DNA of 27,426 nucleotides from a virus (taxonomy: Duplodnaviria; Heunggongvirae; Uroviricota; Caudoviricetes): the IMG/VR virus record IMGVR_UViG_2660238683_000003, positions 1 to 27,426 of that record; one strand, written 5' to 3'. A program made the position numbers and the translations under genes. Positions 23,022 through 27,313 of the stretch are shown in pieces. Within the stretch, counting starts at the first letter, position 1. Every line of letters begins with the position of its first letter. Below the pieces are notes generated by a model that saw nothing but the letters and a program-made list of their open reading frames with translations, had not been told where the DNA came from and searched no databases.

Positions 23022-23153
23022 TTAATAGTCATTGATCGCAAAGGCGTAAACTTGCCCAAGGTATTTCGTATAATCGGTACAAATCTCCTTTACGCTTGAT
23101 GCTGCATTAACAGTCCCAGCCATAAATAATAACGGTAGTAATAGTTTTCTCAT
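23022..23153 (-). CDS. simA: Small ORF (43 aa) with signal-peptide-like N-terminus (SimA-like); not in the ORF track
   Basis: Hand translation gives MRKLLLPLLFMAGTVNAASSVKEICTDYTKYLGQVYAFAINDY. GGTGAGG SD 5 nt upstream of the ATG. Stop lies 4 nt before the simB-like ORF. Confidence 0.4.
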   Translation of the reverse strand: MRKLLLPLLFMAGTVNAASSVKEICTDYTKYLGQVYAFAINDY

Positions 23154-23248
23154 TATAACCTCACCTGCCTTATAACCCATTTAGGGTACATATTTTCGCC
23201 TTTAAAAAAAGAGGTTATTAGATCCATTTGTGCATTTGTTACACAAAT

Positions 23249-23265
23249 AATGCTCTAATAAATTT
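23249..23265 (+). promoter_or_regulatory. C1-repressor operator-like site (Op51-like) upstream of c4-icd-ant
   Basis: AATGCTCTAATAAATTT matches the asymmetric P1 C1 operator consensus ATTGCTCTAATAAATTT (from memory) at 16 of 17 positions. Confidence 0.55.
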
Positions 23266-23449
23266 GTATTTTTAAGTCGCGAATGCTATCTTTTCGCATC
23301 ATATTGACCTTTTAATCGTTCAGGCTTATAGTTCCGCCGTCGTAGCAAATTCTGCGACCGGGTTTAGCAGCCTGAATGTTAGTGCGGACAACCGCAGATA
23401 TCCGATATTGCGGTATTTTTGTGTCCGTAAAACCGCGTTACGCCCAAAT

Positions 23450-23530
23450 TATGGTGGGGCGTGATGGGGAGGCTTCGGCCTGCTGGTTTCACTAACGCCA
23501 GTCTGCTAACCCCGTCACGTCCTGCCACCT
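23450..23530 (+). ncRNA. c4: c4-like antisense repressor RNA (approximate ends)
   Basis: Segments TCACTAAC (23489-23496) and CTGCTAAC (23503-23510) are complementary to GTTAGTGA (23562-23569, overlapping the icd SD) and TTAGCAG (23533-23539). The same target-like pair recurs upstream at 23363-23384. Confidence 0.45.
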
Positions 23531-23579
23531 GTTTAGCAGCGGGTAGCAGGTTGTTAAACCTGTTAGTGAGGCCGTAACT

Positions 23580-23801
23580 ATGGTTAATGCCAATCCTTGC
23601 GCACGCCAAGAATTCATCTGGCGTTTCTATTCCTGTAAAAAACACCACTATCACTTCGTTATCGCAGCAACTGAAGACGAAGCACGCTCTCAATTGCCTG
23701 ATGGCCCCTGCATTTTTACTGCCCGTTTTTCAACTAACTCGCGCAATTCACTTAGTTACTGGAACCTCCCCTTCTCTGCCGACGTTCAGGGGGTTTTATG
23801 A
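23580..23801 (+). CDS. icd: Icd-like small protein (73 aa), translationally coupled to ant
   Basis: 73-codon ORF whose TGA overlaps the ant1 ATG (ATGA). GAGG SD 9 nt upstream is the c4 target. Matches the P1 icd arrangement as recalled. Confidence 0.6.
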   Translation: MVNANPCARQEFIWRFYSCKKHHYHFVIAATEDEARSQLPDGPCIFTARFSTNSRNSLSYWNLPFSADVQGVL

Positions 23802-24841
23802 AAAAAACTCTCATCACCCGGAATGAAATAGCCGAAGCGATCGCTTTGCATACAACCTGTATGCCGACACGGGAGATCCCCGGCGCAATTGCCAACTATT
23901 TCATGATAACCAGGCGTTTTTATACCCGAACAGATAAGGCTGTGATCAACAGGCTACTGATAACCGAGATCAGGGATTATTTGATTGAACAAGGACGTCT
24001 ACGTTACGCAACAGTGGCAGCAGAAATGAGAAAGGAGGCACATAGAATGACCAGTAATAATTTGAATGTTAAAAAACCAGCATCTGTTGCTTCAGCTACG
24101 CCATCTCCAGCCGTGAATGTCATCCCCAACACCGGAGACACAATCGACAGCCAAACATTGTTGAAGATGGTCAATGAGGCACGTAAGTTATGTGGAGAAC
24201 CAGAGGTTAGAAACAATAAATTCATCGAAAAAATACTCGATGAACTTGAAGGTGAATTTTACACAAAAAGTGCAAAATCCCATGGCACAAGGGCCGGGCG
24301 CTCTTTTGAGGTCATAACCATGACCTATAAACAAGCCCTGCGAGTCGCCGCGCGCGAATCAAAAGCTGTCCGCCGTTCGCTGATCGACAAACTAGAAGAA
24401 TTGCAGCAGGCAAACTCCCCTACTCCATCGATCCCCCAAACATTACCAGAAGCTCTACGCCTGGCCGCCGAGTTGGCAGAACAGAAAATGCAGTTGGAAC
24501 AACAGCTGGTGGCCGCTGCCCCTAAAGTCGATTTTGCCGACCGGGTATCAGTGGCTAATGGAATCCTGATCGGGAACTTTGCAAAGGTCGTTGGGCTTAA
24601 GCAAAACGCCCTTTTCTCATGGTTGCGCCAGAACGGCATTCTCATGGCTTTTGGTGCGCGCAAAAACGTACCGCGCCAGCAGTACATTAACGCCGGGTAT
24701 TTCACGGTGAAAGAAGTGGTGCTGGATGATGAAAATGGCTACCAGATACGGCTGACGCCCCAATTAACGGGTAAAGGCCAGCAGTGGTTAACTCGCAAGC
24801 TACTTGATGCTGGTTTGTTAAAACCAGTAGCAATAGGTTAA
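23798..24841 (+). CDS. ant1: Antirepressor Ant1 (347 aa); probable in-frame Ant2 start at 24047
   Basis: C-terminal roughly 140 aa (PQTLPEALRLAAELAEQK...GKGQQWLTRKLLDAG) is an antirepressor-type (AntA/KilAC-like) domain, also present in the next gene. Internal ATG at 24047 has AAGGAGG 8 nt upstream. Confidence 0.75.
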   Translation: MKKTLITRNEIAEAIALHTTCMPTREIPGAIANYFMITRRFYTRTDKAVINRLLITEIRDYLIEQGRLRYATVAAEMRKEAHRMTSNNLNVKKPASVASATPSPAVNVIPNTGDTIDSQTLLKMVNEARKLCGEPEVRNNKFIEKILDELEGEFYTKSAKSHGTRAGRSFEVITMTYKQALRVAARESKAVRRSLIDKLEELQQANSPTPSIPQTLPEALRLAAELAEQKMQLEQQLVAAAPKVDFADRVSVANGILIGNFAKVVGLKQNALFSWLRQNGILMAFGARKNVPRQQYINAGYFTVKEVVLDDENGYQIRLTPQLTGKGQQWLTRKLLDAGLLKPVAIG

Positions 24842-26976: not shown

Positions 26977-27099
26977 TACAATCGCTGCGGGTGCTTGAGG
27001 CTATCTGCTTCAGGCATTACCCGAAAAGCAGACAGAAGAAAGCCCCAGATAACATTACGCGTCCTGCAAGACGCTTAACATTAATCTGAGGCCATATCT

Positions 27100-27306
27100 A
27101 TGCTTAGCATACGTAGATTAGCCTCTTACCGACCAAAAGGTCAAGGAGAAGCAGGCTATGAAGCAGCAAAAAGCGATGTTAATCGCTCTGATCGTCATCT
27201 GTTTAACCGTCATTGTGACGGTACTGGTAACGAGGAAAGACCTCTGCGAGGTACGAATCCGAACCGGCCAGACGGAGGTCACTGTCTTCACAGCCTACGA
27301 ATCTGA
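27100..27306 (+). CDS. mok: mok-like overlapping reading frame (modulator of killing)
   Basis: ORF that starts upstream of hok and overlaps almost all of it in another frame, as in hok/mok/sok loci. Confidence 0.35.
   Translation: MLSIRRLASYRPKGQGEAGYEAAKSDVNRSDRHLFNRHCDGTGNEERPLRGTNPNRPDGGHCLHSLRI
27110..27145 (-). promoter_or_regulatory. Candidate sok-like antisense promoter
   Basis: On the minus strand: -35 TTGACC (27144-27139), 18-bp spacer, -10 TAATCT (27120-27115). The transcript would run antisense across the mok start and hok leader. Confidence 0.3.
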
Positions 27307-27313
27307 AAGGTAA
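27158..27313 (+). CDS. hok: Hok/Gef-family type I toxin (51 aa)
   Basis: MKQQKAMLIALIVICLTVIVTVLVTRKDLCEVRIRTGQTEVTVFTAYESER is near-identical in pattern to E. coli HokD/RelF as recalled. AAGGAG SD upstream. Confidence 0.85.
   Translation: MKQQKAMLIALIVICLTVIVTVLVTRKDLCEVRIRTGQTEVTVFTAYESER

What the first reader, a model, noticed from the sequence alone, without database searches (positions are those of the whole stretch)
23340..23580. immI-type antisense circuit: c4-like RNA complementary to the icd ribosome-binding site, with a second target-like pair upstream
Around 23489-23510 the two segments TCACTAAC and CTGCTAAC are complementary to GTTAGTGA (23562-23569, covering the GA of the icd SD) and TTAGCAG (23533-23539). 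A second copy of the target pair (TTTAGCAG at 23363 and GTTAGTG at 23378) lies upstream of the RNA. This is the architecture described for P1 c4 RNA repression of icd-ant. The exact RNA ends are not deducible from sequence, and the upstream decoy pair may keep the precursor inactive until processing.
Basis: partly seen in the sequence, partly recalled or inferred. Interest (0 to 1): 0.5.

Follow-up and report, generated by a model that had tools for sequence, protein, structure and literature searches.

The report
P1-type C4 antisense immunity switch
This is the well-known C4 antisense-RNA switch that keeps phage P1-type plasmid prophages dormant; the copy here is ordinary in mechanism, but its two recognition sequences mix those of P1 and P7, one of at least twelve such combinations in nature.

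Summary
Every motif sits at the stated coordinate. The composite 'a then b within 30 nt' occurs three times in 205 bp and nowhere else in the window, against 0 in 100 shuffles. Rfam hits C4 (RF01695, 70 bits) and c4-a1b1 (RF03163, 55.5 bits) above gathering score. So the system is already known.

- This copy is neither P1-type nor P7-type. Its a1/a'/a2 elements are P7-type and its b1/b'/b2 elements are P1-type.
- Across 126 related modules (51 distinct haplotypes) there are 2 'a' alleles and at least 7 'b' alleles in at least 12 combinations. Watson-Crick matching is 100% at both the downstream (a2/b2) and the upstream (a1/b1) sites.

The second result is strong comparative evidence that the 'putative' a1/b1 sites really pair with C4. 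Whether they act as a cis mask, a competitor or an attenuator remains untested. No paper I could search or open describes this allele diversity, but the most relevant ones were not available.

The parts
23249..23265 (+). C1 repressor operator Oc4 (formerly Op51), AATGCTCTAATAAATTT
   Evidence: Mapped from the curated P1 annotation through alignment A1. The sequence is identical to P1 and P7 over the core.
23263..23292 (+). Promoter P2c4 (formerly P51a), overlapping the C1 operator; -10 TATCTT at 23287-23292
   Evidence: Mapped from the P1 annotation. The generic consensus scan did not call it independently.
23304..23332 (+). Promoter P1c4 (formerly P51b): TTGACC, 17 nt, TATAGT; the transcript should start near 23339
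   Evidence: It is the only sigma-70-like site found in 23150-23900 (10/12 matches). It coincides with the P1 annotation.
23326..23378 (+). c4-a1b1 RNA motif: hairpin P1 (23339-23358) and hairpin P2 (23359-23374), which displays a1 in its 8-nt loop
   Evidence: Rfam RF03163, 55.5 bits, E 1.1e-11. Both hairpins are 99% paired across 51 haplotypes.
23364..23370 (+). a1 upstream target site UUAGCAG (P7-type allele), 7 bp with a'
   Evidence: It is 100% Watson-Crick paired with a' in 51 haplotypes, with 2 compensated positions.
23378..23384 (+). b1 upstream target site GUUAGUG (P1-type allele), 7 bp with b'
   Evidence: It is 100% paired with b' in 51 haplotypes, with 6 of 7 positions compensated across at least 7 alleles.
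23391..23424 (+). Conserved hairpin followed by a U-tract (terminator-like) between b1 and C4; role unknown
   Evidence: The fold and its conservation are. The core CCGC/GCGG is invariant and the U-tract is conserved. The scanner missed it because of a 1-nt bulge. This is inference only.
23453..23529 (+). Mature C4 antisense RNA, 77 nt (5' GGU at the RNase P site; 3' ...GCCACC)
   Evidence: Ends come by homology to the annotated P1 and P7 misc_RNA features. The Rfam C4 hit spans 23447-23532. MFE is -44.9 kcal/mol with the three-helix fold. The AUUAU|GGUG junction is conserved in 50/51 haplotypes.
23489..23496 (+). b' recognition element UCACUAAC in the C4 hairpin loop (P1-type)
   Evidence: Mean P(unpaired) is 0.93. 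It is complementary to b2 (8 bp) and b1 (7 bp).
23503..23509 (+). a' recognition element CUGCUAA in the C4 single-stranded junction (P7-type)
   Evidence: Mean P(unpaired) is 0.96. It is complementary to a1 and a2.
23533..23539 (+). a2 target site UUAGCAG in the loop of hairpin 23528-23543
   Evidence: It is 100% paired with a', and the hairpin is 98.5% paired.
23562..23569 (+). b2 target site GUUAGUGA, overlapping the icd Shine-Dalgarno (GAGG 23568-23571)
   Evidence: It is 100% paired with b' over 8 bp. It is always 1 bp longer than b1, because A follows the core at b2 and C follows it at b1 in 50/51 haplotypes.
23580..23801 (+). icd (73 aa, cell-division inhibitor); its translation is the direct target of C4
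   Evidence: ORF. It is annotated as Icd in P1, P7 and the identical plasmid.
23798..24841 (+). ant1 (347 aa antirepressor), overlapping the icd stop in ATGA (translational coupling); the in-frame ant2 start is M84 at 24047
   Evidence: ORF. Pfam ANT/KilAC hit, 1.1e-30. P1 annotation.

Best explanation
This is the immI immunity operon of a P1-like phage-plasmid. The c4-icd-ant operon is transcribed as one unit from promoters P2c4 and P1c4 and is partly controlled by the C1 operator. Host RNase P cuts at AUUAU|GGU, and 3' trimming releases a stable 77-nt C4 RNA (23453-23529). Its loop element b' and junction element a' pair in trans with b2 and a2 in the leader of the same operon's mRNA. The b'-b2 helix covers the icd ribosome-binding site and blocks icd translation. 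Because icd and ant1 are translationally coupled through an ATGA overlap, this also blocks antirepressor synthesis, so C1 stays active and lysogeny is maintained. A second, slightly weaker a/b pair (a1/b1) in the 5' leader also pairs with C4. Most likely it acts as a competitor or cis-mask that tunes how much free C4 reaches a2/b2. Recognition needs two keys. This copy carries the P7-type 'a' key and the P1-type 'b' key, giving an immunity specificity distinct from both reference phages. Steps shown here: the sequence elements, the RNA family membership, the fold with exposed a'/b', and three-way covariation of all sites. Steps taken from P1 literature and not tested here: RNase P processing, translational repression, coupling to ant, and heteroimmunity. 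Steps inferred: the role of a1/b1, and cross-reactivity with P1 and P7.
For: - **RNA family:** Rfam C4 and c4-a1b1 both score above gathering thresholds.
- **Context:** 96% identity and feature-by-feature colinearity with the curated P1 immI annotation, covering operator, two promoters, a1, b1, C4, a2, b2, icd and ant1/2. Promoter P1c4 is recovered independently.
- **Fold:** C4 folds at -44.9 kcal/mol with b' and a' 93-96% unpaired.
- **Placement:** the composite a..b motif occurs 3 times locally against 0 expected.
- **Downstream pairing:** a':a2 and b':b2 are 100% Watson-Crick in 51 distinct haplotypes, with 8 compensated positions. Register-slide controls fall to 28-48%.
- **Upstream pairing:** a1:a' and b1:b' give the same result, with slides at 27-40%.
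- **Diversity:** element positions are 17% of the non-coding region but carry 62% of its entropy.
- **Mixed allele:** between 23336 and 23608 the window is P7-like at every P1/P7-diagnostic site except b1 (plus one linked SNP), b' and b2.
- **Prevalence:** the same mixed C4 allele is in 34 PLSDB plasmids, against 86 P1-type and 192 P7-type.
- **Proteins:** ant1 has the KilAC/ANT domain.
- **Literature:** C4 is a roughly 77-nt RNase P product starting at GGU, b' occludes the RBS, and 4 nt of difference suffice for P1/P7 non-cross-reactivity (PMC5320573). The a1/b1 competition hypothesis is in the PMC2864571 supplement.
Against: - There is no expression, processing or repression data for this particular element. 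RNA ends are assigned by homology only.
- The 51 haplotypes are close relatives (mean column identity 91%). All were recovered with an exact-match core pattern, so independent evolutionary events number roughly the alleles (2 a, at least 7 b), not the sequences.
- One module (L045) has b2 mismatched to its own b'. It lies at a contig end in a sample with two modules, so it may be an assembly chimera.
- The role of a1/b1 is not resolved. Nested folding cannot evaluate the pseudoknotted cis pairing.
Confidence: 0.93

Rival explanations
1. The short complementarities are chance matches and there is no RNA regulator here.
For: Each 7-mer alone occurs about as often as expected in the window.
Against: The composite motif occurs 3 times in 205 bp against 0 in 100 shuffles. 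There are two Rfam gathering-level hits. Three-site covariation is perfect across at least 7 alleles.
Confidence: 0.01
2. c4 is a small protein repressor encoded by one of the short ORFs over the region (the pre-1990 view, still reflected in GenBank record X15639, which annotates c4 as a CDS).
For: ORFs of 39 aa (23376-23495) and 38 aa (23461-23577) exist on the + strand. X15639 lists 'c4: CDS'.
Against: The 39-aa ORF is intact in only 3 of 51 haplotypes. The 38-aa ORF is frameshifted or altered in 10 of 51. Variation is concentrated in positions that are compensated at the RNA level at three separate sites. Literature establishes C4 as an RNA.
Confidence: 0.01
3. The a1/b1 sites are an autoregulatory attenuator rather than a decoy. 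In this view, mature C4 binds a1/b1 on nascent transcripts just upstream of the hairpin and U-tract at 23391-23424. That changes termination or decay of the transcript and gives negative feedback on the whole c4-icd-ant transcript.
For: a1/b1 co-vary perfectly with C4. A conserved terminator-like hairpin with a U-tract starts 7 nt after b1. The last base of b1 is part of an outer helix that encloses this hairpin.
Against: The hairpin is weak on its own (-8.7 kcal/mol) and was not called by the terminator scan. The close-relative set has almost no variation with which to test it. No literature support was found. C4 must still be transcribed through it.
Confidence: 0.15
4. The a1/b1 sites have no function of their own. 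They match C4 only because they are dragged along with a2/b2 by gene conversion or by linkage within a short, recombining block.
For: All six elements lie within 206 bp and are inherited together. The haplotypes are closely related.
Against: The elements are interleaved (a1 b1 b' a' a2 b2). In the window each b element is a separate 2-nt P1-like island in a P7-like background, so each site switched separately. Flanks of a1/b1 and a2/b2 differ, with 7-nt against 22-nt spacing and different hairpin arms, which argues against simple conversion tracts. There is not a single mismatch or G-U intermediate at a1/b1 in 51 haplotypes. A conserved 1-bp asymmetry between b1 and b2 is maintained in 50/51.
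Confidence: 0.07

Closest known systems
Phage P1 immI operon (c4-icd-ant1/2; AF234172 / NC_005856)
   Same: Operator, both promoters, the c4-a1b1 hairpins, the 77-nt C4 scaffold, icd, the ant1/ant2 arrangement, and the flanking sim and kilA-repL genes are all shared. The region is about 96% identical. The b1/b'/b2 elements are identical to P1.
   Different: All three 'a' elements carry the P7 allele (UUAGCAG/CUGCUAA instead of UUGACAG/CUGUCAA). The predicted a-duplex with a P1 target drops from -9.0 to -5.3 kcal/mol. A hok/sok module follows repL, which is absent from the P1 reference.
Phage P7 immI operon (AF503408)
   Same: Within 23336-23608 the backbone is P7-like at every diagnostic SNP outside the b elements. 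The a1/a'/a2 elements are identical to P7.
   Different: All three 'b' elements carry the P1 allele (GUUAGUG/CACUAAC instead of GAUUGUG/CACAAUC). The predicted b-duplex with a P7 target drops from -14.3 to -7.4 kcal/mol. The upstream neighbour is the P1-type sim operon, not P7 upf50.5.
Rfam C4 (RF01695) and c4-a1b1 (RF03163) families (Weinberg et al. 2010)
   Same: Full-length matches to both models above gathering score, with the consensus structures.
   Different: None at the family level. The Rfam description treats a1/b1 as proposed targets. The three-way allele covariation shown here within the P1 group is not part of the passages I could read.
Phage D6 c4-icd module (MF356679)
   Same: Same scaffold and same site order. 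The 'a' allele is the P1 type.
   Different: D6 uses a third 'b' allele (ACUUACG/CGUAAGU), and its antirepressor gene is different (Roi-like).

Membership tests
Rfam C4 antisense RNA (RF01695) | Covariance-model score at or above the gathering threshold over the full model | tested here: met
   70.0 bits against GA 45, model positions 1-87 of 87, window 23447-23532 on the + strand.
Rfam C4 antisense RNA (RF01695) | Long closing stem enclosing two hairpins, with b' exposed in the second hairpin loop and a' in the single-stranded junction | tested here: met
   The MFE structure at -44.9 kcal/mol reproduces the model. P(unpaired) is 0.93 for b' and 0.96 for a'.
Rfam C4 antisense RNA (RF01695) | Matured from a longer sense transcript by RNase P at a GGU/GGW site, giving a roughly 77-nt RNA | not testable with these tools
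   The sequence context AUUAU|GGUG and the 3' GCCACC are present and conserved in 50/51 haplotypes. Processing itself is known only from P1/P7 literature.
Rfam c4-a1b1 (RF03163) | Two-hairpin motif upstream of C4, with a1 in the second loop and b1 immediately 3' | tested here: met
   55.5 bits against GA 46.7, window 23326-23378. The hairpins are 99% paired in 51 haplotypes.
P1/P7 immI operon | a2/b2 targets downstream of C4 on the same strand, complementary to a'/b', with b2 overlapping the icd RBS | tested here: met
   a2 is at 23533-23539 (7 bp) and b2 at 23562-23569 (8 bp), overlapping GAGG 11 nt before the ATG at 23580.
P1/P7 immI operon | icd translationally coupled to ant1/ant2; antirepressor with a KilAC/ANT domain | tested here: met
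   ATGA overlap at 23798-23801 and an in-frame M84 ant2 start. Pfam ANT hit at 1.1e-30.
P1/P7 immI operon | C1 operator (Oc4/Op51) and promoters P51a/P51b upstream | tested here: met
   The operator AATGCTCTAATAAATTT at 23249-23265 is identical to P1. P51b is found independently.
P1/P7 immI operon | C4 represses icd/ant in vivo and confers immunity | not testable with these tools
   Requires reporter fusions or superinfection assays.
P1 immI specificity type | a elements UUGACAG/CUGUCAA together with b elements GUUAGUG/CACUAAC | tested here: not met
   The b elements match P1 but all three a elements are the P7 allele.
P7 immI specificity type | a elements UUAGCAG/CUGCUAA together with b elements GAUUGUG/CACAAUC | tested here: not met
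   The a elements match P7 but all three b elements are the P1 allele.

The most novel reading that the evidence does not exclude
P1-like phage-plasmids carry a combinatorial, two-key RNA immunity code. Two 'a' alleles and at least seven 'b' alleles are reassorted into at least 12 specificities under diversifying selection. Every switch is executed at three interleaved sites at once. The perfect co-switching of the upstream a1/b1 pair shows that this 35-year-old 'putative' site is an obligatory part of the circuit, as a cis-mask, decoy or attenuator. The window's a(P7)/b(P1) type would then be a distinct immunity class that may partially cross-react with both P1 and P7. The pattern itself is shown here. 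What is uncertain is whether it is new to the literature and whether each combination is functionally orthogonal.
Probability: 0.45. Interest if true: 0.55.

Novelty: new member of a known kind. Interest (0 to 1): 0.3.

Why it matters
As a finding it mostly confirms textbook P1 biology, so on its own it matters little. Three practical points follow from the extra analysis.

- **Annotation gap.** C4 and its targets are unannotated in every plasmid record examined, so immunity type is invisible in current phage-plasmid surveys. It could be read directly from about 20 nucleotides.
- **Ecology of P1-like elements.** These elements are common carriers of resistance genes in E. coli and Salmonella. 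If the a x b allele code really sets which of them exclude or tolerate each other, it predicts which can co-reside or superinfect.
- **The a1/b1 question.** The perfect covariation makes the long-open question of what the upstream sites do directly testable by allele swaps.

The allele set is also a ready-made panel of natural, possibly orthogonal, short RNA-RNA recognition pairs on one scaffold.

Tried and rejected
**Rejected readings**
- Chance complementarity is rejected.
- A tRNA or tmRNA-like gene is rejected: ARAGORN finds nothing in 23200-23700.
- Protein-coding c4 is rejected: the overlapping ORFs are not conserved.

**Analyses with limited or no power**
- Nested MFE folding of the precursor, to test cis pairing of a1/b1 with a'/b', was uninformative. 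That pairing crosses the C4 closing stem, so it is a pseudoknot. I replaced it with crude duplex-plus-opening energies. These let one or two stem bases open and ignore loop geometry, so only the ranking should be trusted.
- Covariation of the leader hairpins and the terminator-like hairpin could not be tested properly. Too little variation exists among these close relatives, and nearly all compensatory changes come from one divergent locus, L105.
- Orthogonality of co-resident modules: 0 of 22 pairs are identical. Random expectation of zero identical pairs is only 5%, and assemblers collapse identical repeats, so this is suggestive only.
- The genome-contig scan gave only 3 loci. One is labelled a Bacillota MAG, which is probably mis-binned.

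**Literature not reached**
- Lobocka 2004, Gilcrease & Casjens 2018, Riedel 1993 and Hartmann 1995 are not held, and Citron & Schuster 1990 was available only through secondary citations. I therefore cannot exclude that allele diversity or engineered a/b hybrids were already described there.
- Full-text searches found no paper describing multiple c4 specificity types in P1-like elements.

Full report
**1. Observation**

Reading 23100-23900 confirms every coordinate in the finding.
- TCACTAAC is at 23489-23496 and CTGCTAAC at 23503-23510.
- TTAGCAG is at 23533-23539.
- GTTAGTGA is at 23562-23569, running into the GAGG Shine-Dalgarno ahead of the ATG at 23580.
- The upstream copies are TTTAGCAG at 23363-23370 and GTTAGTG at 23378-23384.

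Individually the 7-mers are not over-represented in the 27.4-kb window. The composite 'TTAGCAG, 3-30 nt, GTTAGTG' occurs three times, all inside 23364-23568. Two copies are on the + strand and one on the - strand, the last being the a'/b' pair of the RNA. None occurred in 100 dinucleotide-preserving shuffles. The pattern is real.

**2. What it is**

A gathering-threshold Rfam scan of the whole window gives three hits.
- C4 antisense RNA (RF01695): 23447-23532, + strand, 70 bits, full model.
- The a1/b1 target motif (RF03163): 23326-23378, + strand, 55.5 bits.
- A sok antitoxin RNA at 26989-27163, which is unrelated to this finding.

The 701 bp around the finding are 100% identical to E. coli plasmid pRHB17-C14_2 (CP057689.1). 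They are about 96% identical to phage P1 and 96.5% to P7 over the shared part. About 600 PLSDB plasmids carry the region, nearly all non-mobilisable Escherichia or Salmonella plasmids, i.e. P1-like phage-plasmids.

The curated P1 record annotates the C1 operator Oc4, promoters P2c4 and P1c4, 'putative' a1 and b1 sites, the 77-nt C4 RNA, a2, b2, icd and ant1/ant2. Alignment A1 carries these onto the window as follows.
- Operator: 23249-23265.
- P1c4: TTGACC-17-TATAGT at 23304-23332, also the only sigma-70-like site a blind scan finds.
- a1: 23364-23370; b1: 23378-23384.
- C4: 23453-23529.
- a2: 23533-23539; b2: 23562-23569.
- icd: 23580-23801.
- ant1: 23798-24841, overlapping the icd stop in ATGA, with the in-frame ant2 start at M84.

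ant1 and the downstream kilA carry the KilAC/ANT domain. The flanks are P1-like, with simC/B/A upstream on the - strand and kilA and repL downstream.

The mature RNA folds at -44.9 kcal/mol into the family structure. b' lies in a hairpin loop and a' in the junction, 93% and 96% unpaired respectively. ARAGORN finds no tRNA or tmRNA.

**3. Mechanism**

The mechanism comes from the literature and was not tested here. C4 is cut out of the operon's own transcript by RNase P at a GGU site to give a roughly 77-nt RNA. b' partially occludes the ribosome-binding site and a' adds specificity. [quoted passage not shown] 1995). Full repression of ant needs C4 in addition to C1 (PMC8198154). In the window the AUUAU|GGUG junction and the 3' GCCACC are present, and they are conserved in 50 of 51 related haplotypes.

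**4.

Alignment with P1 and P7 shows the window is neither type.
- P1: a = UUGACAG/CUGUCAA and b = GUUAGUG/CACUAAC.
- P7: a = UUAGCAG/CUGCUAA and b = GAUUGUG/CACAAUC.
- Window: the P7 'a' at all three a sites and the P1 'b' at all three b sites.

I listed every position where P1 and P7 differ. Between 23336 and 23608 the window follows P7 everywhere except three short islands. Those islands are exactly b1 (plus one linked SNP at 23391), b' and b2. The elements are interleaved in the order a1 b1 b' a' a2 b2. This is therefore not a single crossover product. Each b site is a separate 2-nt switch.

**5. The wider pattern**

I scanned IMG/VR and one-genome-per-species contigs with the conserved C4 core, leaving the recognition bases free. 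Projection onto the window reference gave 126 modules, 118 complete regions and 51 distinct 276-nt haplotypes.

There are two 'a' alleles and at least seven 'b' alleles: GUUAGUG, GAUUGUG, ACUUACG (the phage D6 allele), ACGAAUG, GUACAUG, ACUUGUG and GUUCAAG. They occur in at least 12 combinations. The window's combination accounts for 11 of the 126 modules and for 10 of the 118 complete regions. In PLSDB, exact-type 40-nt queries find 34 plasmids with the window's C4 allele, 86 with the P1 type and 192 with the P7 type. In none of them is the RNA annotated.

Formal pair counts on the 51-haplotype alignment A2 give these results.

| Interaction | Pairs | Cells Watson-Crick paired | Positions compensated on both sides | Register-slide control |
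|---|---|---|---|---|
| Downstream (a':a2 and b':b2), | 15 | 100% | 8 | 28-48% |
| Upstream (a1:a' and b1:b'), | 14 | 100% | 8 | 27-40% |

Essentially no G-U intermediates appear: one U-G cell in the downstream set and none upstream. The 42 element positions are 17% of the non-coding region but hold 62% of its entropy, with mean entropy 0.635 against 0.083 bits.

Caveats apply. The sequences are close relatives and share ancestry, so independent events number roughly the alleles, not the sequences. The search pattern also required an exact conserved core.

One module (L045) has b1/b' of one type and b2 of another. It sits at a contig end in a sample holding a second module whose C4 would match it. 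It is either an assembly chimera or a module controlled in trans.

**6. The upstream pair**

The published idea is that a1/b1 compete with a2/b2 for C4 and thereby free a2/b2 (Citron & Schuster 1990, as summarised in the PMC2864571 supplement).

What I can add:
- a1/b1 switch allele together with C4 without exception in the 51 haplotypes. This is hard to explain unless pairing with C4 is selected.
- a1 and a2 are both displayed in 8-nt loops of 4-bp hairpins.
- b2 is always one base pair longer than b1, because A follows the core at b2 and C follows it at b1 in 50/51, opposite an invariant U in C4.
- Crude energies rank a2/b2 (-23.3 kcal/mol) above a1/b1 (-20.1). This is consistent with a1/b1 being the weaker competitor.

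I cannot tell whether a1/b1 act in cis or in trans, or whether they act as mask, decoy or attenuator. The cis pairing would cross the C4 closing stem, so nested folding cannot evaluate it. A conserved hairpin with a U-tract at 23391-23424, starting 7 nt after b1, raises an attenuator alternative. That hairpin is weak and untested.

**7. Predicted cross-reactivity (inference)**

- Against a P1-type leader, the window's C4 keeps the whole RBS-covering b duplex but loses most of the a duplex, for a sum of -19.6 kcal/mol.
- Against a P7-type leader, it keeps a but loses b, for a sum of -16.4.
- Its own target scores -23.3.

Contigs or genomes carrying 2-4 c4 modules never carry two of the same type (0 of 22 pairs). 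Eleven pairs differ only in b and two only in a. This fits a two-key requirement. The statistic is weak, because random expectation of zero identical pairs is 5%, and it is confounded by assembly collapse of identical repeats.

**8. Rivals**

- Chance is excluded.
- A protein-coding c4, the pre-1990 view still seen in record X15639, is excluded. The 39-aa ORF is intact in 3 of 51 haplotypes and the 38-aa ORF is disrupted in 10 of 51.
- Hitch-hiking of a1/b1 is unlikely given the interleaved, island-like switching and the different flanks.

**9. Novelty and score**

The circuit itself is already known, has two Rfam families, and is curated in the P1 genome. The finding as written is a correct re-identification. 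The copy is a member with a mixed P7-a/P1-b specificity, so it fails the narrow tests for 'P1 type' and 'P7 type' while fully meeting the tests for the C4/immI family.

No paper I could search or open describes the combinatorial allele set or the three-way covariation that includes a1/b1. The key subscription papers were not available, so I do not claim priority. I rate it a new member of a known kind, with interest 0.3. Most of that value lies in the testable handle on a1/b1 function and in the immunity-type code.

Noticed in passing
window 23391-23424: A conserved hairpin (ACCGCAG-A-UAU / CCG / AUA-UUGCGGU) is followed by AUUUUUGUGU, between b1 and the C4 5' end. It is enclosed by an outer helix 23383-23390 / 23422-23429 that includes the last base of b1. 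It looks like a weak intrinsic terminator or attenuator. It is not annotated in P1, and the scanner missed it because of a bulge.
   Followed up: partly
window 26989-27163 (module about 26977-27336): An Rfam sok antitoxin hit (111.5 bits) with a hok/mok-like toxin region lies just downstream of repL. It is shared at about 98% with a subset of P1-like phages (annotated MokW in MH422554) but is absent from the P1 reference, which has rlfA/rlfB there.
   Followed up: partly
L019/L054/L101/L123 (IMGVR_UViG_2703718869_000013); L016/L078/L106 (IMGVR_UViG_651053023_000001) and 9 other groups: Single P1-like contigs or genomes carry 2-4 separate c4 modules, and none of the 22 co-resident pairs shares a specificity type. 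Two pairs differ only in the 'a' element and eleven only in 'b'.
   Followed up: partly
L045:4560-4928 (- strand): This is the only module whose b2 (GUUAGUG) does not match its own b1/b' (ACGAAUG type). A second module in the same sample (L076) has a C4 that would match it. It is either an assembly chimera at a repeat or a module repressed in trans by a neighbour's C4.
   Followed up: partly
window 23336-23608: There is a mosaic of P1-like and P7-like diagnostic SNPs. The window is P7-like everywhere except three islands that coincide with b1 (+23391), b' and b2, implying three separate coordinated 2-nt switches rather than one crossover.
   Followed up: yes
L125 (JAFAFU010000019.1, 2867 bp): A contig labelled 'MAG: Bacillota bacterium' carries a near-identical P1-like c4 module (a P7-type, b D6-type). 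This is most likely mis-binned enterobacterial phage-plasmid DNA.
   Followed up: no
PLSDB hits H25-H77; GenBank X15639: The C4 RNA and its targets are unannotated in every plasmid record inspected ('none' under the match). One old P1 record still annotates c4 as a CDS.
   Followed up: no
window 23385 vs 23569: The base after the 7-nt b core is C at b1 and A at b2 in 50 of 51 haplotypes, opposite an invariant U in C4. The downstream target therefore always forms one more base pair than the upstream one.
   Followed up: yes
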